Assembly: GCA_031411695.1 (NCBI GenBank)
Contig: JANOBO010000155.1
Coordinates: 827-64,826, forward strand
DNA length: 64,000 nt
Reading direction: 5' to 3'
Source: Verrucomicrobiaceae bacterium
GTDB taxonomy: Bacteria; Verrucomicrobiota; Verrucomicrobiia; Verrucomicrobiales; Verrucomicrobiaceae
Shown in pieces: positions 26,844 to 36,434 of this stretch. Each line of letters begins with the position of its first letter. Position 1 is the first letter of the stretch. A program made the translations under genes and the position numbers. The notes beneath the pieces were generated by a model. That model ran no database searches and was not told where the DNA came from. It saw nothing but the letters and a program-made list of their open reading frames with translations.

Positions 26844-28703
26844 ATGCAAACCACAACCCTGCCGACCGACGAACCCGAATCCCTGCACCGCGCGGTGAGC
26901 GAGGCTGTGCGACGGCTGGCAGCGGGCGACATCGTGGCTTTGCCAACAGAGACGGTCTATGGCCTCGCGGCTGACGCGCTGGACGCGGACGCGGTCGCAA
27001 AGGTGTTCGCGGCAAAGGAGCGGCCGTCGTTTGATCCGCTGATCGTGCATGTGCCCACAAAGCAGGCTGTGCATGACGTGGCGGAGATTCCGGAGTCGAT
27101 CAAGAAAGTGGTGATCCAGCTCATTGAGCGCTTCTGGCCGGGGCCGCTCACGATCGTGCTGCCGAAGAAGGCGTGCGTGCCGGACATCGTGACCTCGGGT
27201 CTGCCGACCGTCGCGGTGCGCATGAGCTCGCATCCCGTTTTCAAGCGCATCAGCCAGGCGCTGGGGAAACCCATCGCCGCGCCGAGCGCGAATCGCTTTG
27301 GCTCGATCAGTCCGACATCCGCCTCGGCGGTGCAGGCCGAGCTTGATGGCCGCATCCCGCTGATCATTGATGGCGGCGCATGTTTGCACGGCATCGAATC
27401 AACGATCATCAAGATCGAGCCCGGCGGCACGACTTCAGAAAAAGTGGTGCAACCCGCTGGGTTGCCCTCAGAAAATGTGGGGCAAGCCGCTGGCTTGCCC
27501 GAGTCCGCTGCAACCCAGCGGGTAGCACCACCTTCAAAGCCGCTCATCACCATCCTGCGGCCGGGCCCGATCCTGCCGGACGATCTCAAGCAATATGGCC
27601 GTCTCCAACGCCACCAGAAGCAGCTGACCAACGAGCCGAGCGAGGCACCCGGTCAGCTCGCCTCCCACTACGCGCCGCGCACACCATTGCGGCTGCTCGA
27701 GTCACCGCGAGATTTCATCCCAGAGCCGGGGAAAAAATACGCGCTGCTGAGTTTTTGCGGTGATGCCGACGACGGCTACGTCGATCTCACAGACTGGGTA
27801 CAGGTGATGATCCTCAGCCCCGGCAACGGCAAGCTGCCCGAGGCTGCGGTGCGCTTCTTTTATGCTCTGCGCGAGCTGGACAAATGCGGCGCGGATGAAA
27901 TCATCGCCGAGCCGCTGCATGAGTTTGGCCTCGGCATTGCGATGATGGACCGGCTGCGCCGAGCGGCGAGCAAAGTGGGGCAACCCGCCGGGTTGCCCGA
28001 ATCCACTGCAACCCAGCGGGTTGCACCACTTTCGGCGGACGCGCCGGTTGCACCACCTTTCATTAACCTCTTCACGGATGTCTCGTACTTCGATCCGCGC
28101 GCAGACATCGAAAACGAAGAGCGCAATCTTCCGCACTGGCGTCAGCCCGGCAAAACCTACTTCGTGACCTACCTCTTGGGCGATGCGATCCCGCAGGAAA
28201 AACTGCGCCTGCTTCAGTCCGAGCGGAAGGCGTGGTTCGACTCTCACACGCAGCCTTGGTCGGACGAGGACCGGTTGCTCTATCACCAGCTTTTCTCCGC
28301 GCGCGTCCAAGACTGGCTCGATGCGGGCTACGGCTCATGCGTTTTGCTCGACGAGAAGGCCGCGCAAATTGTCGCGGACTCGCTTCGCCACTTTGATGGC
28401 CAGCGTTACGACCTGCTAGCGTGGGTGGTGATGCCGAATCACGTTCATGCGCTCGTGACGCCCAAAGATGGCTTTCATCTCGACCAAATTTTGCACTCCT
28501 GGAAATCCTTCACTGCGCATGAGATCAGCAAGCGACTCTCGCGCCACGGCCCGCTCTGGCAGCATGAGGGATACGATCACATCGTGCGGAAGCCGGAGGC
28601 GCTTTGGGCTATTGCCAAATATATTGCCGACAATCCGAAGAAAGCTGGCATCAGCACGCGGTTCGTCGAGTCACGAGTCACGCACACGCAGGATGGACGC
28701 TGA
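26844..28703 (+). CDS. tsaC: L-threonylcarbamoyladenylate synthase (Sua5/TsaC, YrdC + Sua5 domains) read through without a stop into a RAYT-like transposase domain
   Basis: The start is taken at MQTTTLPTDEP (ATG 26844, just after the upstream stop at 26836). The YrdC motifs are 'ALPTETVYGLAADA', 'KERPSFDPLIVHV' and 'SANRFGSISPT'. The Sua5 C-domain shows 'PGQLASHYAPRTPL...GLGIAMMDRLRRAAS'. The same frame then continues through REP sequence into the RAYT domain, up to TGA 28701-28703. Confidence 0.85.
   Translation: MQTTTLPTDEPESLHRAVSEAVRRLAAGDIVALPTETVYGLAADALDADAVAKVFAAKERPSFDPLIVHVPTKQAVHDVAEIPESIKKVVIQLIERFWPGPLTIVLPKKACVPDIVTSGLPTVAVRMSSHPVFKRISQALGKPIAAPSANRFGSISPTSASAVQAELDGRIPLIIDGGACLHGIESTIIKIEPGGTTSEKVVQPAGLPSENVGQAAGLPESAATQRVAPPSKPLITILRPGPILPDDLKQYGRLQRHQKQLTNEPSEAPGQLASHYAPRTPLRLLESPRDFIPEPGKKYALLSFCGDADDGYVDLTDWVQVMILSPGNGKLPEAAVRFFYALRELDKCGADEIIAEPLHEFGLGIAMMDRLRRAASKVGQPAGLPESTATQRVAPLSADAPVAPPFINLFTDVSYFDPRADIENEERNLPHWRQPGKTYFVTYLLGDAIPQEKLRLLQSERKAWFDSHTQPWSDEDRLLYHQLFSARVQDWLDAGYGSCVLLDEKAAQIVADSLRHFDGQRYDLLAWVVMPNHVHALVTPKDGFHLDQILHSWKSFTAHEISKRLSRHGPLWQHEGYDHIVRKPEALWAIAKYIADNPKKAGISTRFVESRVTHTQDGR
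27444..27531. repeat. REP family 1 cluster (REPIN-like) inside the sua5 interdomain linker
   Basis: The sequence is GTGGTGCAACCCGCTGGGTTGC ... GTGGGGCAAGCCGCTGGCTTGCCC GAGTCCGCT GCAACCCAGCGGGTAGCACCAC. The outer 22-mers are reverse complements of each other with 1 mismatch. Confidence 0.9.
27975..28058. repeat. REP family 1 doublet plus partial copy at the Sua5/RAYT junction
   Basis: GTGGGGCAACCCGCCGGGTTGCCC GAATCCACT GCAACCCAGCGGGTTGCACCAC lies at 27975-28029. An extra GGTTGCACCAC lies at 28047-28057. Confidence 0.9.
27975..28703 (+). mobile_element. REP-associated tyrosine transposase (RAYT, IS200/Y1 HUH family) domain
   Basis: 'NLPHWRQPGKTYFVTYLLGDAIP', the HUH motif 'LAWVVMPNHVHALVTP' and 'LWQHEGYDHIVRKPEALWAIAKYIADNPKKAGI' are present. 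There is no ATG between the end of Sua5 and the HUH motif. The only canonical in-frame start is the GTG at 27975, inside a REP. REP doublets flank it on both sides. Confidence 0.8.
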
Positions 28704-30384
28704 TCCAAAAGTGGGGCAAGCCTCAGAAAAAGTGGGGCAAGCCGCTGGCCTGCCCGAGTCCACTGCAACCCAGCGGGTAGCACCACATTCGAACTCCCAA
28801 GCCCGCTCCACCGGCGTCGTCTCCATCGCGATCCTTTGCAGCCGCGTGCTCGGACTGGTGCGCGACCAGTTGCTGAACGGCCTCTTTGGTTCCGCGTTCA
28901 CCGGCGTGTTCAGCATGGCGTTTCGCACCCCGAACATGCTGCGCGATCTCTTTGCCGAGGGCGCGCTTTCCACCGCGTTCGTCACCACGTTCTCGAAGAA
29001 GATGAAGACCGAGGGCGACGCTGCGGCTTGGCAGCTCGGGCGCAAAATGCTCTCACTCTCCGTCTGCTTCATGTCCATGGTCGCCCTCGCCGGCGTCGTG
29101 CTCGCGCCATGGATCTTCCGCCTGCTCACACCCGGCTTCTCCGAGGAGCACAAGATCCTCGGCATCTGGCTCGCGCAGATCATGTATCCCTTCATCGCCC
29201 TCGTCTCCGTCACCGCGCTGGTGATGGGCATGCTGAATGCGAAGAAAGTCTTCTTCATCCCCGCCCTCGCCTCCGCGTTCTTCAATCTCGGCTGCATCAT
29301 CGGCGGCGTCACCATCGCATGGGGGATCGATCCCGGCTTCCGCGATGGACATATCACCGAGCGCGGTCTCACCGGCTTCGCCATCGGCACCCTCATCGGC
29401 GGCGTGCTGCAGCTCCTCGTGCAGATCCCGTCGCTGCTGCGTGTCGGCTTCAAATTTGGACTCGACCTCGGATGGAAGGACTCCGGCGTGCGCGACGTGC
29501 TCCGCCTCATGTGGCCCTCGCTCCTCGCCGCCGGCGGCACGCAGATCACCGTGTTCATGAATTCCATCTTCGCCTCCATGACACCCGGCCACGCATCCTC
29601 CGTCGCCTGGCTCGGCAACGCGCAGCGGATGCAGCAGCTCCCGCTCGGCCTCTTCGGCGTCGCCGTCGCCACCGTCACGCTGCCCATGCTCTCTCGTCTC
29701 GCCACCGAGGGCATCACGCCCGCGTTCCGCGCCGCGCTGGCGAAAGGATTGCGCCTCGTGCTCTTCCTCACCCTGCCCTGCGCGCTCGGCCTCTCGCTGC
29801 TCGCGCATGAGATCATCTCCGTCATTTTCGAGCACGGAAAATTTACCGCCGATGACGTGACGCAGACCACCGGCCCGCTCCAGGCCTACGCCTTCGGCCT
29901 TGTCTTTTACTCCGCCGTGAAAGTGCTCCAGCCCGCTTTCTACACCATCGACCGTCGCTTCATCCCCATGATGATCAGCATCGGCATCATCATCTTCAAT
30001 CTCGTCGCAAACTACACGACCGTGATCGTGCTCGGCTGGGATCACAACGCCCTCGCCTGGGCCACCGCCATCGGTCTCGTGCTCAACTTCACCACGCTTT
30101 ACCTCTGCATGAGGAAATTCGCCAGCGGCCTCGAAACACGCACGCTCACTACCGCGCTGCTGCGGCTCGTCATTGCCGTCGCGCTCATGGCCGCCGTCTG
30201 CGTCGCCGCGCGCATGACAATCATGGCCGACTGGTCGCACCTCAGCCTGCTCATGCGCATAGGCACTCTCGGCGTCACCATCGCCGCCTCGGCGGCCGTG
30301 TATTTTTTCGCCACTGCTAAGCTCGGCATCGAGGAGTCGGGCGAGTTCCTGTCATTGCTCGGCAAGCGCTTCGGTCGTAAATAG
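28693..30384 (+). CDS. murJ: Lipid II flippase MurJ
   Basis: 'CSRVLGLVRDQLLNGLFGSAFTGVFSMAFRTPNMLRDLFAEGALSTAFV' is the MurJ N-terminal signature, and the protein has ~14 TM segments. The first usable starts are ATG 28693, GTG 28711 or GTG 28732, all upstream of or inside the REP. The track ORF begins at 28468, inside the RAYT domain. Confidence 0.9.
   Translation: MDADPKVGQASEKVGQAAGLPESTATQRVAPHSNSQARSTGVVSIAILCSRVLGLVRDQLLNGLFGSAFTGVFSMAFRTPNMLRDLFAEGALSTAFVTTFSKKMKTEGDAAAWQLGRKMLSLSVCFMSMVALAGVVLAPWIFRLLTPGFSEEHKILGIWLAQIMYPFIALVSVTALVMGMLNAKKVFFIPALASAFFNLGCIIGGVTIAWGIDPGFRDGHITERGLTGFAIGTLIGGVLQLLVQIPSLLRVGFKFGLDLGWKDSGVRDVLRLMWPSLLAAGGTQITVFMNSIFASMTPGHASSVAWLGNAQRMQQLPLGLFGVAVATVTLPMLSRLATEGITPAFRAALAKGLRLVLFLTLPCALGLSLLAHEIISVIFEHGKFTADDVTQTTGPLQAYAFGLVFYSAVKVLQPAFYTIDRRFIPMMISIGIIIFNLVANYTTVIVLGWDHNALAWATAIGLVLNFTTLYLCMRKFASGLETRTLTTALLRLVIAVALMAAVCVAARMTIMADWSHLSLLMRIGTLGVTIAASAAVYFFATAKLGIEESGEFLSLLGKRFGRK
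28711..28786. repeat. REP family 1 doublet immediately 3' of the RAYT stop, inside the murJ 5' end
   Basis: GTGGGGCAAGCC tcagaaaaa GTGGGGCAAGCCGCTGGCCTGCCC GAGTCCACT GCAACCCAGCGGGTAGCACCAC. Confidence 0.9.
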
Positions 30385-30396
30385 TGCGCGACTTTT

Positions 30397-30996
30397 ATGA
30401 ACCGCCATCGCCCCTGGCTCATCGCACTCACCGCACTCGTTCCGTTGTGGTTGGCCGTCGCCGTCGTGCAGCACCTGACGGACGACGACATCTCATCACC
30501 CGAGGAGACGATTGCCATCCTGGCCGATGCGCCCTGGCTGCACCCAGAAGCAGGGGCGGCATCCATCACGGCACGGGCCGCCCACATCGAGCTGGCGATC
30601 AAGAACATGAACCTGCTGAACTTCGAGCAGCGTCGCGAGGTGCGTGAAACCGGCGCGGACACGCTGAAGCAGTTCTTCGACTCGCTGACGCCGGAGGAGC
30701 GGAAAGTCTATGTGGACCGCACCGTGCAAAAGGCTTTCGACGCGGTGATCAAAGGCTTCAAGGCGATGGCACCCGCCGAGAGAAAAGACATGGTGAACCG
30801 CGTGCGCCGCGGCATCCGCCCAAACCGCACCGGACCCGACGCGCAGAAGATCGCGGATGAAGATCAGAAGATGTTCGACGAGTTCATCGACCTCGGCATC
30901 GAGGACTATCTGAAGAACGCGAGCACCGAAGAGAAGATGAAACTCGCGCCAGCAATCGAAGACATGCAGACACGAATCCGAGGCATTGGCCGGTGA
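30397..30996 (+). CDS. Hypothetical membrane-anchored protein
   Basis: 199 aa with an N-terminal TM segment 'PWLIALTALVPLWLAVAVV', followed by a charged helical region. I recognise no family. Confidence 0.7.
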   Translation: MNRHRPWLIALTALVPLWLAVAVVQHLTDDDISSPEETIAILADAPWLHPEAGAASITARAAHIELAIKNMNLLNFEQRREVRETGADTLKQFFDSLTPEERKVYVDRTVQKAFDAVIKGFKAMAPAERKDMVNRVRRGIRPNRTGPDAQKIADEDQKMFDEFIDLGIEDYLKNASTEEKMKLAPAIEDMQTRIRGIGR

Positions 30997-31000
30997 ACGA

Positions 31001-31058
31001 AAAGGTGGTGCAATCCGCTGCATTGCACTCTTAATGGCAAGCCAGCGGCATTTGCCAC
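31001..31058. repeat. Diverged REP family 1 copy (two hairpins)
   Basis: The sequence is aaaGGTGGTGCAATccgctgCATTGCAC tcttaa TGGCAAgccagcggcaTTTGCCAC. It shares the AAAGGTGGTGCAA leader with the 27444 and 34582 copies. Confidence 0.6.
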
Positions 31059-31160
31059 TTATGGCCCTCATCGATATTCAGCGTTCCCGGTCATGACACC
31101 GAGGGAGCGAAGCGGTCCCAAGGCTAGGAGAATCCATTTGCTGATGAGGAGCGGACGTGA

Positions 31161-31496
31161 TTGCTTCGCATCATGGTTTCAATGGAGGACATCCAGCGCT
31201 ACTGCAATGAGATTGCCGAAGCGTTCAAGCCGCAGAAGATCATCCTCTTCGGCTCTCACGCCTATGGGCGGCCGCACCGTGATTCCGATGTCGATGTGCT
31301 GGTGGTCATGCCTGAACATCGGCGTGCGGGGTATCACACCGTCATCAAGATCCGCGAAAAAGTTCGAGGACGCTTTCCCGTGGACCTTCTCGTGCGTGGC
31401 AGCCGCGACATCGCGCGCCGAGTCGAGGATCGTGAGTCGTTCATCCTCGACATCACAGAGAACGGGAGGGTCATGTATGAGGCGGGCCACGCATGA
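31161..31496 (+). CDS. Nucleotidyltransferase-domain protein (MntA-like antitoxin)
   Basis: 'ILFGSHAYGRPHRDSDVDVLVV' is the GS...D.D minimal nucleotidyltransferase motif. The start is uncertain (31161, 31173 or 31182). Confidence 0.8.
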   Translation: MLRIMVSMEDIQRYCNEIAEAFKPQKIILFGSHAYGRPHRDSDVDVLVVMPEHRRAGYHTVIKIREKVRGRFPVDLLVRGSRDIARRVEDRESFILDITENGRVMYEAGHA

Positions 31497-31857
31497 GTGG
31501 ATCAAAAAGGCGGAGGAGGATTTTCAGGCTGCTCTGGTGCTCTCGCGACAACGGAAGACGCCACTGCGTGACGCTGTCTGCTTTCACTGTCAGCAGAGCG
31601 CCGAGAAGTATCTCAAAGCGAGGCGGGAAGAAGCTGGGGTGCGCATCCCAAAAACACATGACCTTGAAGATTTGCTGAACCTCGCGACTCCTTTTGAGCC
31701 CCTGTGGACGGCGCTCGCACCTCCGCTCCGAAGACTCACGCCTTTTGGCGTGAAAATTCGTTATCCCGGCAATGAGGCCACTGACTCGCAGGTGAAAATG
31801 TCGACGCAGGACGTAAAGGTGGTCCGCAAAGAAGTCCGATTTGCCCTTGGACTCTGA
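31477..31857 (+). CDS. HEPN-domain protein (HepT-like toxin partner)
   Basis: This is the C-terminal 126 aa of track ORF 31093..31857, starting MRRATHEWIKKAEEDF. 'QQSAEKYLKA', 'HDLEDLL' and 'KIRYPG' are typical of PF05168-type HEPN. It overlaps the nucleotidyltransferase gene by 20 nt. Confidence 0.8.
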   Translation: MRRATHEWIKKAEEDFQAALVLSRQRKTPLRDAVCFHCQQSAEKYLKARREEAGVRIPKTHDLEDLLNLATPFEPLWTALAPPLRRLTPFGVKIRYPGNEATDSQVKMSTQDVKVVRKEVRFALGL

Positions 31858-31866
31858 GAATCACCC

Positions 31867-32763
31867 ATGGCCCTCATCGAAGTACAACACCTCACGAAAA
31901 GCTGGCGCAAAGAAAAGCCGGCGCTGGATGACGTTAGTTTTGAGGTCGGGTACGGGCAGATCGTCGGGCTGCTCGGGCACAATGGCGCGGGGAAGAGCAC
32001 GGTGCTCGGCATCACGCTCGGCATGGTGCGGCCCGACGGCGGCGAGGTGCGGATCGGCGGGCACTCGGTGCAGCAGCATCGCGCGCGGGCGCTGCAACAG
32101 ATCGGCGCGATCTTTGAGGCACCGGTGTTCTATGACTACCTGACGGGCTGGCAGAATCTGCGCGTGCTGTGCTCGCTCTCCGGCTATTGGGATGAGAAAG
32201 AGGCGAAGCGCGTGCTGAAGCTGGTGAACCTCCACGACCGCGCGGACAACCAAACCTCCACCTACAGCCACGGCATGAAGCAGCGGCTCGCGCTCGCACA
32301 GGCGCTGCTGCCGCGGCCGAAATGCCTGCTGCTCGACGAGCCGACCGACGGCCTCGACCCCGAGGGCATCCGCGAGTTCCGCGAGTTCGTGATGAAGCTG
32401 CGAACCGACTTCGGCATGACCATCCTGCTAAACTCACACCTTCTCGCCGAGGTCGAGCTCATGTGCGACCGATGCGTGATCCTCAAGGAAGGCCGCAAGA
32501 TCTACGAAGGCCCCGTGCCGTCGAAAGGCGACACGCAGAACCGCTACCAACTGCAGACGGCCGATCTAGAGATTGCGCGCGGCATCGCCGCGCGAGCCGG
32601 GGCCACCATCCACCCGGACAACACGGTGGAGCTGCCTCCCGACATTCTCGGCCACGAGTTCGTAAAGCGTCTGGTCGATGCAGGCGCGCGCGTGGATGGC
32701 TGGCACGCCGAGAAGAAAACCCTCGAGGACTGCTACCTCGAGCTCACCAGCGCCCCGCGATGA
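31867..32763 (+). CDS. ABC transporter ATP-binding protein
   Basis: It has Walker A 'GHNGAGKST', signature 'YSHGMKQR' and Walker B 'CLLLDEPTDGLD'. Confidence 0.93.
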   Translation: MALIEVQHLTKSWRKEKPALDDVSFEVGYGQIVGLLGHNGAGKSTVLGITLGMVRPDGGEVRIGGHSVQQHRARALQQIGAIFEAPVFYDYLTGWQNLRVLCSLSGYWDEKEAKRVLKLVNLHDRADNQTSTYSHGMKQRLALAQALLPRPKCLLLDEPTDGLDPEGIREFREFVMKLRTDFGMTILLNSHLLAEVELMCDRCVILKEGRKIYEGPVPSKGDTQNRYQLQTADLEIARGIAARAGATIHPDNTVELPPDILGHEFVKRLVDAGARVDGWHAEKKTLEDCYLELTSAPR

Positions 32764-33608
32764 AGCTCCTCCTTTGGCAATTTTACGCGGAGTGGCTGAA
32801 ACTGCTGAGGCGGAAGCGCACCTACATCGGGTTCGGCGCGTTCATCGCGATGGAGCTGGTGATCCTCGTGGTATTTCAGAGACAAGGACCGGAGGGGTTT
32901 TATCGGAGGATGATCTCGCGGCAAGGCGGCTTGTTTGAGAACTACTTTTCGGGACTGACCCTTGGCTTCATCGTGCTGGCTTTTTCGGCCGCTCTCCTTG
33001 GCTCCATTTACCTCGCGCTCGTGTCGGGCGACATCGTGGCTAAGGAAAGCGAAGATGGCAATCTACGCCTGCTGCTCGCCAGACCTGTGAGCCGTGTGCG
33101 TCTGCTGGCCGTGAAATATGCCACCTGCTCGTGCTATGCCTGGCTGCTGATCCAGTTCATCGCGTGGTCGGCGTTTCTGCTCGGCGTGAGCGTGCGCGGC
33201 TGGGGCGGAGGGATGTTTGTGTTCGCCCCTGAGCAAGGTCTGGCGGAGTTGTGGGATTGGCACGAGGGTCTGCGGCGGTATGCGCTTTGCTCCGTGTTTC
33301 TCGGCTTGAGCATGACGACGGTCAGCTCGGTGGCTTTCTTTTTCTCCTGCTTCCGCATCAAGCCGGCGGCCGCGACCATCACCGCGCTTTCCTACATGCT
33401 GATCGACACGATCCTCATGCGCACGAATCTGCTGCACAGCTATGAGTATCTGCTCATCACACCGTATCTCGAAACATGGATGCGCATGTTTCTCGATCCG
33501 ATCCCGTGGGCGCTCGTGATGCGGAACTACACCATCATCGGGGCCGTGAACTTGAGCTTGTTTGTGCTGGGCGCGGCTTGGTTTCAGACTCGGGATCTGA
33601 AATCGTGA
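32760..33608 (+). CDS. ABC-2 family permease
   Basis: The start MKLLLWQFYAEWLKLLRRK (ATG 32760) overlaps the ATPase stop (ATGA). There are six hydrophobic segments. The track ORF extends spuriously upstream to 32322. Confidence 0.85.
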   Translation: MKLLLWQFYAEWLKLLRRKRTYIGFGAFIAMELVILVVFQRQGPEGFYRRMISRQGGLFENYFSGLTLGFIVLAFSAALLGSIYLALVSGDIVAKESEDGNLRLLLARPVSRVRLLAVKYATCSCYAWLLIQFIAWSAFLLGVSVRGWGGGMFVFAPEQGLAELWDWHEGLRRYALCSVFLGLSMTTVSSVAFFFSCFRIKPAAATITALSYMLIDTILMRTNLLHSYEYLLITPYLETWMRMFLDPIPWALVMRNYTIIGAVNLSLFVLGAAWFQTRDLKS

Positions 33609-33615
33609 GCGCGTG

Positions 33616-33716
33616 AAAGTAGTCCAGGCACTCCGTGACTGGTGTGATCAGGTCCGCGTAGCATCATAGCTGCTACGAACCGGCTCCAGTCCCGCCGAGC
33701 GGGACTGGACTACTTT
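33616..33716. repeat. Full-length GTAG-type palindromic element (family 2)
   Basis: The sequence is AAAGTAGT-CCAGGCACtccGTGACTGG ... CGTAGCAtcatagcTGCTACG ... CCAGTCCCGCcgaGCGGGACTGG-ACTACTTT. The termini are 12-nt perfect inverted repeats. It is intergenic between the permease and panC. Confidence 0.8.
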
Positions 33717-33807
33717 GCGGAGCGCCAGCGGCCAAAGGCTGGAAGCCTCTTACCCTTGAGCGTCCGGAGTTCGATCCTCCGGTTGCGTTCTTGCGGACGT
33801 TGCTAGG

Positions 33808-34764
33808 ATGATTCGCATGAGGTTGATCGAAACGGTGACGGCGCTGCGCGAGTGGCGGTGTGAGAATGCGGCGCGCGTCTTCTTCGTGCCAACGATGGGC
33901 GCGCTGCACGAAGGGCACGCGGCGCTGGTGCGTGAGGCGCGGCGGATGGCTGGCGAGGACGGCCGTGTGGCGGTCAGCATCTTTGTGAACCCGCTGCAGT
34001 TCGGGCCAAATGAGGATCTGGATCGTTACCCGCGCACGCTGGAGGCTGATCTCGCGATGTGCGAGGCGGCGGGTGCGGACATGGTTTTCGCGCCGCCAGT
34101 TCGAGAAGTGTATTTTGAGAACAGGTCGATCCACATCGCCGAGTCGAGCCTGTCGCACGTCCTGTGCGGCGCGAGCAGGCCCGGACACTTCGACGGCGTG
34201 TGCACAGTGGTGGCAAAGCTGTTCAATCTCGTGCAACCGGATGACGCGGTCTTCGGCAAGAAGGACTACCAGCAGCTCTCGATCATCCGAAGGCTGCTGC
34301 GTGATCTGAATTTTCCGGTCGAGATCCACGGCCTGGAGACGGTGCGCGAGGCTGATGGGCTGGCGATGAGTTCGCGGAATCGTTACTTGAATGCTGACGA
34401 GCGTGCGCAGGCACCGACGTTGCGGCGTGCTTTGATCGCGGCGCGTGAAGCGTGGCTCGGCGGTGCGGAGGATGCGCGGGAGCTTGAGAAGATCGTCCGA
34501 GATGAAATCGCGGCGCACTCTCCACTTGGGAGGATCGACTATGTCTCGTGTGTCGATGCGGGTTCGCTCCGCGAACTAAAAGTGGTGCAAGCCGCTGGCT
34601 TGCAGCCGTCAGTGAAGGGCACAGCCAAACCCGATGGACTCCCTCCTGCAACCCAGCGGGTTGCACCACTTTTCGCAACCGAGCCGGTTGCATCACTTTT
34701 GGCGGGGGCGGTCTTTTTTGGTGCGACACGGCTGATCGACAACATCGAGCTGCGGCATCAATAA
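33808..34764 (+). CDS. panC: Pantoate--beta-alanine ligase with an in-frame REP-derived insertion near the C-terminus
   Basis: 'FVPTMGALHEGHAALV', 'VSIFVNPLQFGPNEDL' and 'KDYQQL' are present. The C-terminal 'ATRLIDNIEL' is preceded by ~40 extra aa (KVVQAAGLQPSVKGTAKPDGLPPATQRVAPLFATEPVASLL), encoded by REPs at 34582-34696. Confidence 0.93.
   Translation: MIRMRLIETVTALREWRCENAARVFFVPTMGALHEGHAALVREARRMAGEDGRVAVSIFVNPLQFGPNEDLDRYPRTLEADLAMCEAAGADMVFAPPVREVYFENRSIHIAESSLSHVLCGASRPGHFDGVCTVVAKLFNLVQPDDAVFGKKDYQQLSIIRRLLRDLNFPVEIHGLETVREADGLAMSSRNRYLNADERAQAPTLRRALIAAREAWLGGAEDARELEKIVRDEIAAHSPLGRIDYVSCVDAGSLRELKVVQAAGLQPSVKGTAKPDGLPPATQRVAPLFATEPVASLLAGAVFFGATRLIDNIELRHQ
34582..34696. repeat. 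REP family 1 cluster inside panC
   Basis: GTGGTGCAAGCCGCTGGCTTGC lies at 34582-34603, GCAACCCAGCGGGTTGCACCAC at 34648-34669 and GCAACCGAGCCGGTTGCATCAC at 34675-34696. Confidence 0.9.
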
Positions 34765-34765
34765 A

Positions 34766-34826
34766 GTGGTGCAAGCCGCTGGCTTGCGGCCATGATCGAT
34801 GACTGCAACCGAGTCGGTTGCACCAC
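34766..34826. repeat. Intergenic REPIN (two inverted family 1 REPs) between panC and nadB
   Basis: The sequence is aaaGTGGTGCAAGCCGCTGGCTTGC ggccatgatcgatgact GCAACCGAGTCGGTTGCACCACttt. It starts 2 nt after the panC stop and ends 3 nt before the nadB ATG. Confidence 0.9.
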
Positions 34827-34829
34827 TTT

Positions 34830-36434
34830 ATGAAGGAATACGATTTCATCGTTGTCGGCACGGGAGCGGGCGGTCTGAGCGCGGCGCTGCATGCGGCGGA
34901 GCACGGCCGCGTGGTGGTGCTGACGAAGCGCGGCGTGGACGACTCAAACTCGACCTGGGCGCAGGGCGGCATCGCGTGCGTGCAGAGCGAGGAAGACTCC
35001 ATCGAGCAGCATGTGAGCGACACACTCATCGCCGGCGGGGGCCTGTGCAACGAGTCGGCGGTGCGCACCATCGTCACGGAGGGCCCCGCGCGGATCGAGG
35101 AGCTGGTGAAGTGGGGCGTTCACTTTGATCAACGCGAGGCGACGGACGGGCACCTGGAATTCGACCTCACCCGCGAGGGCGGCCACACCCGGCGGCGCGT
35201 GCTGCATTCGCGCGATGCCACAGGTCGTGAGCTGACAGAGAAGCTGATCGCTGCGGTGCGGGCGCATCCGAACATCGAAGTGCTCGAGGAACACTTTGCC
35301 ATCGACCTCATCACAACCGCGAAGCTCGGTCATGTGGCGGAGGATCGCGTGCTCGGACTTTATGTGCTCGATGAGAAAAGCGGCGAGGTGGAGACCTTCC
35401 GATCGGACCGCGTGATCCTCGCGACGGGCGGCTGCGGGCGAGTTTATCTTTATACAACGAACCCGCAGATCGCGACCGGCGACGGGGTGGCGATGGCTTG
35501 GCGGGCGGGCGCGGCGGTGTCGAACATGGAGTTCATCCAGTTTCATCCGACGTGCCTCTACCATGCGGAGAACCGCTCCTTTCTCATCACCGAAGCGATG
35601 CGCGGCGAAGGTGCGCGGCTTGTGGACAAGGAAGGCAACGAATTCATGCAGAAGTACGACGAGCGCGGGTCTCTCGCGCCGCGTGACATCGTGGCCCGCG
35701 CGATCGACCACGAGATCAAGCGCACTGGCGGACCCTGCGTGTATCTCGACATCAGCCACAAGCCGGCAGAGTTCATCATCGAGCACTTCCCCAACATCCA
35801 CCGCGCCTGCCTCGAGCTGGACATCGACATCACCAAGCAGCCGATCCCCGTGGTGCCTGCCGCGCATTATCAATGCGGCGGCGTGCTCACTGACATCAAC
35901 GGAGCCACGACGATCCGCGGACTGGCCGCCGTGGGCGAGGTGGGCTGCACGGGCCTGCACGGCGCGAACCGCCTCGCCAGCAACTCGCTGCTCGAGTGCC
36001 TCGTCGTCTCGAAGCGCGCGGTCGATTTCATTTTGCAAAAGCTCCCCGTCGGCAAGACGCAGACACAGAGCTACGAGATCCCGCTGTGGAAACGCGGTGA
36101 CGCGCAGGACGTGGACGAACTCGTGGTCATCTACCACAACTGGGACGAGATCCGCCGGCTGATGTGGGACTATGTCTCCATCGTGCGCACCAACAAACGG
36201 CTCCAACGCGCGGCCGCGCGGCTGCGAAACCTGAAGCGCGAGGTGCAGGAGTTTTACTGGAACTTCCGCATCACCAGCGAGCTCCTCGAACTGCGAAACC
36301 TCGTCGAGACCGCGACACTCATCGTCGATTGCGCTGTGCGCCGTCAGGAAAGCCGCGGGCTGCATTACACGCTGGATTTCCCGGCTCCAAATCACTCCCG
36401 GCCGCCGACAGACACGGTCCTGCGGCGATATTGA
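34830..36434 (+). CDS. nadB: L-aspartate oxidase
   Basis: The start is taken at MKEYDFIVVGTGAGGLSAAL (ATG 34830). The track ORF starts at a TTG at 34818, inside the REP. 'TWAQGGIA', 'FIQFHPT', 'EAMRGEGA' and 'GLHGANRLASNSLLE' are present. Confidence 0.95.
   Translation: MKEYDFIVVGTGAGGLSAALHAAEHGRVVVLTKRGVDDSNSTWAQGGIACVQSEEDSIEQHVSDTLIAGGGLCNESAVRTIVTEGPARIEELVKWGVHFDQREATDGHLEFDLTREGGHTRRRVLHSRDATGRELTEKLIAAVRAHPNIEVLEEHFAIDLITTAKLGHVAEDRVLGLYVLDEKSGEVETFRSDRVILATGGCGRVYLYTTNPQIATGDGVAMAWRAGAAVSNMEFIQFHPTCLYHAENRSFLITEAMRGEGARLVDKEGNEFMQKYDERGSLAPRDIVARAIDHEIKRTGGPCVYLDISHKPAEFIIEHFPNIHRACLELDIDITKQPIPVVPAAHYQCGGVLTDINGATTIRGLAAVGEVGCTGLHGANRLASNSLLECLVVSKRAVDFILQKLPVGKTQTQSYEIPLWKRGDAQDVDELVVIYHNWDEIRRLMWDYVSIVRTNKRLQRAAARLRNLKREVQEFYWNFRITSELLELRNLVETATLIVDCAVRRQESRGLHYTLDFPAPNHSRPPTDTVLRRY

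What the first reader, a model, noticed from the sequence alone, without database searches (positions are those of the whole stretch)
27433..27543. REP cluster inserted in frame into the flexible linker between the YrdC and Sua5 domains
The YrdC domain ends 'GIESTIIKIEPGG' and the Sua5 domain begins 'PLITILRPGPILPDDL'. In other Sua5 proteins I recall these segments being separated by only a short linker. Here ~35 extra residues, TTSEKVVQPAGLPSENVGQAAGLPESAATQRVAPPSK, are encoded exactly by the REP triplet at 27444-27531. A palindromic mobile repeat has therefore been absorbed into an essential gene without breaking the frame. This is the same phenomenon reported for Rickettsia palindromic elements.
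Basis: partly seen in the sequence, partly recalled or inferred. Interest (0 to 1): 0.65.

Follow-up and report, generated by a model that had tools for sequence, protein, structure and literature searches.

The report
Mobile palindromic repeat inside Sua5 gene

Summary
Window 27432-27536 holds about 105 extra bases made of three REP units: 27441-27467 (+), 27474-27500 (+) and 27508-27534 (-). They are read in frame within sua5 (tsaC2). The repeat family occurs about 13 times in the window, against 0.2-0.9 expected by chance. The cluster is about 93% identical to a sister copy at 28729-28790. Only 4 of the 120 closest orthologues carry any insert at this site, and the nearest insert-free one is 93% identical. 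Contigs assembled from other samples carry the same insert.

The interpretation needs one correction. The insert is not in the interdomain linker. It sits at the tip of the last beta-hairpin of the TsaC-like (YrdC) domain, between the strands that carry the Ser181 and Arg195 equivalents of P. abyssi Sua5. The true linker, with its PGx and HY motifs, is intact further downstream. AlphaFold models the insert as a disordered loop. Sua5 remains under purifying selection (dN/dS 0.06).

A REP-associated tyrosine transposase (RAYT) gene flanked by REPINs lies 0.55 kb downstream. It is read in frame with sua5, with no stop codon between them. The same hairpin carries a different REPIN in a sister clade. 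PanC and MurJ in this window also contain REP-coded peptides. Intragenic REPs are already described, so this is a new member of a known kind.

The parts
26844..27971 (+). sua5/tsaC2 coding sequence proper (L-threonylcarbamoyladenylate synthase), from ATG 26844 to the last conserved residues ...MDRLRRAAS
   Evidence: Pfam PF01300 (7e-52) and PF03481 (3e-22); TIGR00057 at 166 bits against a cutoff of 123. Matches PDB Sua5 6f87 and 2eqa. The AF2 model matches 6f8y and 9d3h at E 5e-26.
27432..27536 (+). In-frame insertion of 35 codons (boundaries good to within a few bases) relative to insert-free orthologues; encodes GTTSEKVVQPAGLPSENVGQAAGLPESAATQRVAP
   Evidence: Protein alignment A1; DNA junction comparison with L001; pLDDT below 50 for residues 197-227, lying between strands 187-192 and 234-239.
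27441..27467 (+). REP unit 1: AAAGTGGTGCAACCCGCTGGGTTGCCC
   Evidence: hairpin -7.7 kcal/mol, z -3.5
27474..27500 (+). REP unit 2: AATGTGGGGCAAGCCGCTGGCTTGCCC; it forms a REPIN with unit 3
   Evidence: hairpin -11.0 kcal/mol, z -5.0. Units 2 and 3 differ at 4 of 62 positions from the copy at 28729-28790 (sequences).
27508..27534 (-). REP unit 3 (inverted): AAGGTGGTGCTACCCGCTGGGTTGCAG on the minus strand
   Evidence: 92% complementary to unit 1 (inverted repeat I3)
27972..28059 (+). REPIN (27972-27998 +, 28006-28032 -) plus an extra half unit (28043-28059 -). It replaces the sua5 stop codon and joins sua5 in frame to the RAYT ORF.
   Evidence: folds at -27 kcal/mol, z -7.9. A run X3 contig spans 27892-28562 without a gap.
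28086..28703 (+). REP-associated tyrosine transposase (RAYT) domain, in frame with sua5; stop codon at 28701-28703
   Evidence: PF01797 at 28 bits; NF047646 REP_Tyr_transpos at 78.4 bits, just under the 80-bit cutoff. H-V-H and Y-x-x-x-N-P are 100% conserved in 81 relatives. The gene is flanked by REPINs.
28708..28789 (+). Sister REP cluster (a truncated unit plus a REPIN) just after the RAYT stop. It lies inside the 5' end of the MurJ reading frame that starts at ATG 28693.
34579..34699 (+). Another intragenic cluster of the same REP family, in frame near the C-terminus of PanC
34763..34829 (.). Intergenic REPIN of the same family. It fills the spacer between the PanC stop (TAA 34762-34764) and the next ATG (34831).

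Best explanation
A cluster of three REP units from the genome's own REP/REPIN family inserted into the sua5 coding sequence in this lineage, after it split from its closest insert-free relatives. The family consists of non-autonomous single-strand hairpin elements mobilised by a RAYT, an HUH/Y1 transposase. The cluster is 105 nt long and has no stop codon in the frame used, so the gene stays open. The protein gains 35 Gly/Ala/Pro/Gln-rich residues that form a disordered loop at the tip of the last beta-hairpin of the TsaC-like domain. [quoted passage not shown] The insert is most likely a tolerated, near-neutral passenger rather than a new functional module. The probable mobilising enzyme is encoded 0.55 kb downstream, between sua5 and murJ. 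It is bracketed by sister REPINs, one of which has erased the sua5 stop codon.

Shown here: the repeat identity and copy number; the hairpins; the absence of the insert from orthologues; the in-frame status; the loop position in a model; support from independent assemblies; purifying selection on sua5; and the adjacent RAYT with conserved motifs.

Inferred: that the RAYT moved the element; that the insert is translated; and that it is functionally neutral.
For: The repeat family exceeds chance (15 against 0.17; 13 against 0.86). The Sua5-loop cluster aligns along its whole length with the cluster at 28708-28789, including the internal TCAGAAAA(A/T)GTGG junction. Its REPIN part differs at only 4 of 62 bases, whereas sua5 itself has dS 0.78 against the nearest insert-free orthologue. 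Of the 120 best orthologues, 116 have 12-13 residues between EST.. and ..RPG, where the window has 47. In an NJ tree the window is nested inside a clade of 10 insert-free sequences. L001, the closest relative, has no insert, no RAYT and no REP tag in 9 kb. The AF2 model shows strands 187-192 and 234-239 with coil between them and pLDDT below 50 for 197-227; the fold is that of Sua5. The residues K58/R60, S148/N150, S186, R239, P269-G270 and H275 are invariant in A1 (23 sequences) and Y276 is at least 90% conserved; all but K58/R60 are called invariant against orthologues. dN/dS is 0.06. Independent contigs carry the insert. The RAYT rests. The Sua5-RAYT-MurJ gene order is conserved in 10 genomes.
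Against: There are no transcript or peptide data (no RNA run was found), so translation of the insert is assumed. Only 64 kb of the genome was seen, so a second tsaC/sua5 copy that would relieve constraint cannot be excluded. The 5' junction cannot be resolved to the base: the GGC ACG ACT codons are of unclear origin. No target-site signature was identified. RAYT-mediated transposition of REPINs has never been shown directly for this family.
Confidence: 0.85

Rival explanations
1. There was a single ancient insertion. One REPIN entered this hairpin in the common ancestor of the window's clade and the P0012/P0013/P0015 clade. It was later removed precisely in many descendants (RAYT-type excision is seamless) and remodelled in the window.
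For: Four orthologues carry an insert at the same codon position, all ending in ..APPSKP. The L004 and L005 arms are about 96% identical although their sua5 genes have dS of about 1.3. This fits either conserved ancient arms or recent re-insertion.
Against: At least 5 independent precise losses would be needed on the tree. The window's cluster belongs to other hairpin subfamilies, has an extra unit and has a different 5' junction: its native IKIEPGG codons are retained, whereas in L004/L005 the native IKVE codons double as the REP tag. The window's copy is nearly identical to a local sister copy, which points to a recent event.
Confidence: 0.12
2. The insert is functional. Either the 35-residue loop or the strong hairpins in the mRNA have been recruited, for example to tune Sua5 activity or partner binding, or to slow ribosomes and so set the expression of the downstream in-frame RAYT.
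For: The same hairpin is occupied in at least two lineages. All six forward REP tags inside ORFs of the window use the same codon phase, giving K-V-x-Q-x-A-G-L. The site lies between two active-site strands. sua5 and the RAYT share one reading frame in 5 of 10 genomes.
Against: The insert is absent from 116 of 120 close orthologues, including 93%-identical ones. L009 carries a decayed copy. The loop is modelled as disordered. The phase bias may simply reflect that the other two frames encode Trp/Cys/Arg-rich peptides or occasional stop codons.
Confidence: 0.08
3. The insert is an assembly artefact: a repeat-induced chimera placed a REP cluster into sua5.
For: In run X1 the contigs break exactly at 27439/27440, as is typical at repeats. 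Several contigs join REP copies of different loci (joints 27498->28005 and others).
Against: A single 893-nt contig from another sample crosses the whole insert and both flanks with no gap. The frame is kept through 619 codons. Relatives carry comparable inserts in independent assemblies.
Confidence: 0.02
4. This sua5 copy is a decaying pseudogene or a redundant paralogue, so the insertion has no consequence.
For: Only one 64-kb window was examined. The stop codon is lost and the ORF runs on into a transposase.
Against: dN/dS is 0.06 against L001. All catalytic and linker motifs are conserved. The sua5-murJ neighbourhood is the orthologous locus in all relatives examined.
Confidence: 0.03

Closest known systems
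Intragenic REPs of the GTAG/CGTC-tagged families (Di Nocera et al. 2013, PMC3733652)
   Same: Both are short tagged palindromes, mostly present as inverted dimers and associated with RAYT genes. A minority lie wholly inside ORFs and encode 20-30 or more residues. REP termini can supply or overlap stop codons. The Verrucomicrobium Opitutus terrae is among the species reported.
   Different: The tag here is AAAGTGG (GTGG) rather than GTAG, although relatives L010-L013 do use GTAG, whose TAG serves as the sua5 stop. The host gene is sua5, which I did not see in the text passages read; the paper's Additional file 3 was not checked. In this window 4 of 6 clusters are intragenic, an unusually high share.
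Rickettsia palindromic elements (RPE; Ogata et al. 2000, as cited in PMC3733652 and PMC10969869)
   Same: Both are palindromic repeats inserted in frame into housekeeping genes. The added peptides lie on the protein surface and are compatible with fold and function.
   Different: RPE-1 elements are about 100-150 bp and occur in an obligate intracellular alphaproteobacterium; no RAYT association was seen in the passages read. Here the elements are 27-nt REP units in clusters of 60-105 nt, with a RAYT next door. No sequence relationship to RPEs was tested.
REPIN-RAYT systems (Bertels & Rainey 2011, PMC3116915; Nunvar et al. 2010)
   Same: REP doublets occur in inverted orientation. The RAYT is flanked by REPs. 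It is inherited at a fixed chromosomal position, sua5-RAYT-murJ, in 10 genomes. REP tags are absent from the L001 locus, which lacks the RAYT.
   Different: REPINs are described as extragenic. Here they are frequently inside coding sequence, and in 5 of 10 genomes the RAYT ORF is fused in frame to the upstream essential gene.
Sua5/TsaC2 (P. abyssi 6F87, S. tokodaii 2EQA/3AJE/4E1B, T. maritima 9D3H)
   Same: The domain order is the same: TsaC-like domain, lid linker, SUA5 domain. The KxR/SxN tetrad and the PGx and HY linker motifs are present.
   Different: There is a 35-residue loop in place of the 3-4-residue turn between the last two strands of the TsaC-like domain, and a C-terminal read-through into a REP-coded spacer and a transposase domain.

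Membership tests
REP / REPIN (RAYT-associated repetitive palindromes) | Short (about 20-40 nt) imperfect palindrome able to form a stem-loop in single-stranded DNA or RNA | tested here: met
   The 27-nt units fold at -7.7 and -11.0 kcal/mol (0 of 200 shuffles as good). Unit 3 has one stem mismatch (-4.4 kcal/mol).
REP / REPIN (RAYT-associated repetitive palindromes) | Many copies dispersed in the genome, far above chance | tested here: met
   13-15 matches in 64 kb at 6 loci, against 0.17-0.86 expected. Only the window could be searched, not the whole genome.
REP / REPIN (RAYT-associated repetitive palindromes) | Units paired in inverted orientation (the REPIN doublet) | tested here: met
   Doublets at 27474/27508, 27972/28006, 28729/28763 and 34763/34803.
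REP / REPIN (RAYT-associated repetitive palindromes) | Conserved tetranucleotide tag (GTAG or CGTC) at one end | tested here: inconclusive
   A conserved tag exists but reads AAAGTGG (GTGG). Relatives L010-L013 carry GTAG at the homologous position.
REP / REPIN (RAYT-associated repetitive palindromes) | A RAYT gene in the genome, flanked by REPs of the same family | tested here: met
   The ORF part 28086-28703 scores 78.4 bits on NF047646 (cutoff 80) and 28 bits on PF01797 (cutoff 23). HUH and Y-x-x-x-N are invariant in 81 relatives. REPINs lie on both sides.
REP / REPIN (RAYT-associated repetitive palindromes) | Extragenic location | tested here: not met
   This copy, and three other clusters in the window, lie inside reading frames. 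This is the known minority behaviour (PMC3733652).
REP / REPIN (RAYT-associated repetitive palindromes) | Mobility: presence/absence differences between related genomes | tested here: met
   The insert is absent from 116 of 120 orthologues. An insert-free allele occurs in run X4. A different REPIN occupies the same site in L004 and L005.
Rickettsia palindromic elements (RPE) | Sequence membership in one of the RPE families of Rickettsia | not tested
   No RPE consensus was available and the host is a Verrucomicrobium. The resemblance is functional only.
Sua5/TsaC2 threonylcarbamoyl-AMP synthase | TsaC-like domain with the KxR / SxN tetrad and threonine-site Ser and Arg | tested here: met
   K58-E-R60, S148-A-N150, S186 and R239 are invariant in A1. 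They were mapped to Pa-Sua5.
Sua5/TsaC2 threonylcarbamoyl-AMP synthase | Interdomain lid linker with PGx and HY motifs, followed by the SUA5 Rossmann-like domain | tested here: met
   APGQLASHYAP (residues 268-278) is conserved. PF03481 matches residues 258-376. Foldseek matches 6f8y and 9d3h.
Sua5/TsaC2 threonylcarbamoyl-AMP synthase | Catalytic activity (TC-AMP formation, t6A complementation) | not testable with these tools
   Only indirect support is available: dN/dS 0.06.

The most novel reading that the evidence does not exclude
In this Verrucomicrobiaceae lineage the REP/RAYT system may have become entangled with translation of its host genes in two ways. First, the RAYT at the conserved sua5-RAYT-murJ position has no stop codon separating it from sua5 in 5 of 10 genomes, and in the window there is no canonical start codon near its N-terminus. 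It would then be made as, or coupled to, a C-terminal extension of an essential tRNA-modification enzyme, which ties transposase dose to a housekeeping gene. Second, the REP sequence may have been shaped so that one phase (K-V-G-Q-x-A-G-L-P ... A-T-Q-R-V-A-P) is a benign, translatable peptide. That would let REPINs colonise loops and termini of coding sequences and repeatedly re-use tolerant sites such as the Sua5 hairpin.
Probability: 0.15. Interest if true: 0.7.

Novelty: new member of a known kind. Interest (0 to 1): 0.4.

Why it matters
This is a well-documented case, with DNA-level before and after alleles, of a bacterial non-autonomous mobile element being absorbed into the catalytic domain of a near-universal enzyme without breaking it. 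It marks a permissive site in Sua5: the tip of the hairpin between the Ser181 and Arg195 strands. It also shows that 'extragenic' palindromes can be largely intragenic in some Verrucomicrobia, which matters for gene calling, since it produces spurious fusions, shifted starts and lost stops. The adjacent in-frame sua5-RAYT arrangement, seen in several genomes, offers a testable handle on how single-copy RAYTs are expressed and kept. The general phenomenon is already known.

Tried and rejected
1. Assembly artefact: rejected, because independent contigs from other samples cross the insert.
2. Interdomain-linker location: rejected by the alignment to Pa-Sua5, by the published domain limits (linker 200-239) and by the AF2 secondary structure.
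3. A shared ancestral linker peptide: rejected, because 116 of 120 orthologues lack it and the tree nests the window among insert-free sequences.
4. Target-site duplication: none is convincing. The apparent CTTCA repeats at the two ends are simply the inverted REP termini.
5. PDB sequence search for the RAYT part found nothing at E <= 0.01. Motif conservation over 81 relatives was used instead.
6. A search for RNA-seq runs that hold the locus found none, so transcription and translation could not be checked.
7. A literature search for any paper linking RAYT and Sua5 found none.
8. An independent RAYT start codon in the window: only GTG 27975 and TTG 27993, both inside the REPIN, are available in frame. 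There is no ATG/GTG/TTG at the position where L015 (ATG) and L004 (GTG) have one. This is left unresolved.
Full report
**The observation**

The window has one long open frame from 26775 (the likely ATG is at 26844) to the stop at 28701-28703. Its first 376 residues are a two-domain Sua5/TsaC2 L-threonylcarbamoyladenylate synthase. Pfam gives PF01300 for residues 25-192 and PF03481 for residues 258-376, and TIGR00057 scores 166 bits.

At the DNA level it contains three copies of a 27-nt palindromic unit:
- 27441-27467 (+): AAAGTGGTGCAACCCGCTGGGTTGCCC
- 27474-27500 (+): AATGTGGGGCAAGCCGCTGGCTTGCCC
- 27508-27534, inverted

The core of the unit matches 15 times in the window against 0.17 expected by chance. 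The 5' tag AAAGTGGNGCAA matches 13 times against 0.86 expected. Units 1 and 2 fold as DNA hairpins better than all 200 shuffles. Unit 3 has a stem mismatch and folds weakly. The whole 111 nt folds at -36.9 kcal/mol (z -7.1), because unit 1 pairs with unit 3.

**It is a repeat copy, not a native peptide**

The same family forms clusters at five other places:
- 27972-28059, at the sua5 3' end
- 28708-28789, just after the ORF's stop codon
- 34579-34699, inside PanC
- 34763-34829, intergenic
- a degenerate unit at 31002

The Sua5-loop cluster aligns along its full length with the 28708-28789 cluster, including the internal TCAGAAAA(A/T)GTGG junction. Their REPIN parts differ at only 4 of 62 positions.

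**Comparison with orthologues**

A protein search returned Verrucomicrobial orthologues, with Prosthecobacter and relatives as the named ones. Among the 120 best, 108 have 12 residues and 7 have 13 between the EST.. strand and the ..RPG strand. The window has 47. The closest orthologue, P0002, is 93% identical over shared columns. It reads IKIEPA-EPKPMITILRPG, and its DNA (L001) has 51 nt where the window has 156. L001 also has no RAYT and no REP tag in 9 kb, and there sua5 abuts murJ directly.

In an NJ tree the window is nested within ten insert-free sequences. Synonymous divergence from L001 is 0.78, far greater than the roughly 6% difference between the Sua5-loop REPIN and its sister copy. 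The insertion therefore post-dates that split.

**Not an artefact**

Logan contigs from other samples of the same study support the sequence. One 893-nt contig (run X2) crosses 26900-27697 with 15 substitutions and no gap. A 671-nt contig (run X3) crosses 27892-28562, the sua5-REP-RAYT junction. A low-depth contig from another study (run X4) represents an insert-free allele of a roughly 90%-identical relative.

**Where in the protein**

Alignment to P. abyssi Sua5 (6F87) puts the insert between ...GVESTVIDLTEW and PPVLLRPGG. The structure paper gives Ser181 (in EST) and Arg195 (in LRPG) among the residues listed around the bound L-threonine. It defines the interdomain linker as residues 200-239, with the essential PGM and HY motifs (PMC6004061).

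In the window protein these linker motifs are APGQLASHYAP at residues 268-278, about 30 residues downstream of the insert. They are conserved: P269, G270, Q271 and H275 are invariant and Y276 is at least 90% conserved.

An AlphaFold2 model built on 60 orthologues (mean pLDDT 75) shows strand 187-192, coil 193-233 with pLDDT below 50 for 197-227, and strand 234-239. The model matches Sua5/TsaC2 crystal structures with Foldseek probability 1.0. So the insert enlarges the turn of the last beta-hairpin of the TsaC-like domain. It does not lie in the flexible linker.

The catalytic tetrad (K58/R60, S148/N150) together with S186 and R239 is invariant in alignment A1. dN/dS against L001 is 0.06. The gene therefore looks functional.

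**The same site in other lineages**

Three further orthologues carry inserts at the same codon position. L004 (P0012) and L005 (P0015) carry a 51-nt REPIN of another hairpin subfamily: AAAGTGGAGCAAGC(T/C)TCCAGCTTGC... GCAACCAAGATGGTTGCACCACC. In both, the native codons for I-K-V-E (ATCAAAGTGGAG) double as the REP tag. L009 (P0013) carries a decayed version.

Their nearest relatives (P0017, P0016, P0025) lack any insert. L005 has another copy of the same REP unit elsewhere on its contig, and L015 has one at its sua5 3' end. The L004 and L005 arms are about 96% identical, but their spacers are unrelated and their sua5 genes have dS of about 1.3.

The simplest reading is that this hairpin tip is a tolerant site hit more than once, possibly favoured because the native AAGGTGGAG resembles the tag. 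An older insertion followed by precise losses cannot be excluded for the sister clade.

**The transposase next door**

Residues from about 415 to 619 of the same ORF form a REP-associated tyrosine transposase. NF047646 scores 78.4 bits, just under its 80-bit cutoff, and PF01797 scores 28 bits. Over 81 relatives fetched from GTDB genomes, the H-V-H motif and a Y-x-x-x-N-P motif are 100% conserved. From my own knowledge of the family, the latter is the counterpart of Y127-x-x-x-Q131 in IS608 TnpA. REPINs flank the gene on both sides.

The order sua5-RAYT-murJ is conserved in ten distinct Verrucomicrobiaceae genomes: the window, L004, L007, and L010 to L016. This fits the published picture of single-copy, vertically inherited RAYTs.

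In five of the ten (the window, L004, L007, L014, L016) sua5 has no stop codon and runs in frame into the RAYT. In L010-L013 a GTAG-tagged REP supplies the TAG stop. In L015 the stop follows a REP unit. In the window the only in-frame start candidates between sua5 and the conserved RAYT N-terminus are GTG 27975 and TTG 27993, both inside the REPIN. Whether a fusion protein is made, or matters, is untested.

**Other REP-coded peptides in the window**

- PanC (33808-34764) has about 32 extra residues, KVVQAAGLQPS...ATQRVAPLFATEPVASL, between positions that are 13 residues apart in solved PanC structures.
- MurJ must start at or upstream of the REPIN at 28729-28789. The ATG at 28693, overlapping the RAYT stop, is shared with L009.
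- All six forward REP tags that lie in ORFs begin at codon position 0, giving K-V-x-Q-x-A-G-L. The other two phases encode Trp/Cys/Arg-rich peptides and sometimes contain stops.

With four independent clusters this phase agreement is only suggestive, at about 1 in 27.

**Comparison with what is known**

In-frame palindromic repeats are classical for Rickettsia RPEs. Di Nocera et al. (2013) catalogued REPs lying wholly inside ORFs in many species, including the Verrucomicrobium Opitutus terrae. They reported dimers encoding 20-30 residues and tags providing stop codons (PMC3733652; PMC10969869). The present case is therefore a new member of a known kind. I found no paper connecting RAYTs with Sua5.

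**Verdict**

The finding is solid but not surprising to a specialist. The more unusual features lie around it: recurrent use of the same hairpin, the stop-less sua5-RAYT junction in several genomes, and the high share of intragenic REPs with one codon phase. Interest is 0.4.

Noticed in passing
window 26844-28703: sua5 has no stop codon. A REPIN at 27972-28059 joins it in frame to a RAYT (Y1/HUH transposase) domain, giving one 619-codon ORF. The same in-frame arrangement occurs in L004, L007, L014 and L016. In L010-L013 and L015 the two genes are in different frames.
   Followed up: partly
window 34579-34699 (PanC, 33808-34764): A second in-frame REP cluster adds about 32 residues near the C-terminus of pantothenate synthetase, relative to solved PanC structures.
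   Followed up: partly
window 28693-28800: The MurJ reading frame starts at an ATG that overlaps the RAYT stop (ATGGACGCTGA, shared with L009) and reads through a REP cluster. There is no start codon between the REPIN and the conserved SRVLG motif, so MurJ must carry REP-coded N-terminal residues.
   Followed up: partly
window 34762-34833: An intergenic REPIN exactly fills the spacer between two genes. The PanC TAA stop overlaps the REP tag (TAAAGTGG), and the next gene's ATG follows the inverted tag directly (CCACTTTATG).
   Followed up: no
window 27441-34829; L004, L005, L014, L015: REP hairpins fall into subfamilies that differ by compensatory stem changes behind a constant AAAGTGGNGCAA tag: GCAACC-CGCT-GGGTTGC, GCAAGC-CGCT-GGCTTGC, GCAACCG-GCT-CGGTTGC and, in relatives, GCAAGCT-TCC-AGCTTGC and GCAACCA-AGA-TGGTTGC.
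   Followed up: partly
L010-L013, about 2900-2915: In these Prosthecobacter-like genomes the REP at the sua5 3' end carries a GTAG tag whose TAG is the sua5 stop codon. The RAYT frame opens inside that REP (GTA GTG CAA ...).
   Followed up: no
L009 714-828 and 1221-1343: This relative has no RAYT between sua5 and murJ. It keeps a decayed REPIN in the Sua5 hairpin and a REPIN-coded C-terminal tail on Sua5, consistent with REPIN decay after loss of the local RAYT.
   Followed up: no
window 31002-31028: A degenerate single REP unit (AAGGTGGTGCAATCCGCTGCATTGCAC) lies in the spacer between ORFs 30397-30996 and 31093-31857.
   Followed up: no
window 27433-27543 against run X2: The strain in run X2 differs from the window at 15 positions over 26900-27697, but at none between 27369 and 27580. 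The insert and its immediate flanks are identical between the two strains.
   Followed up: no
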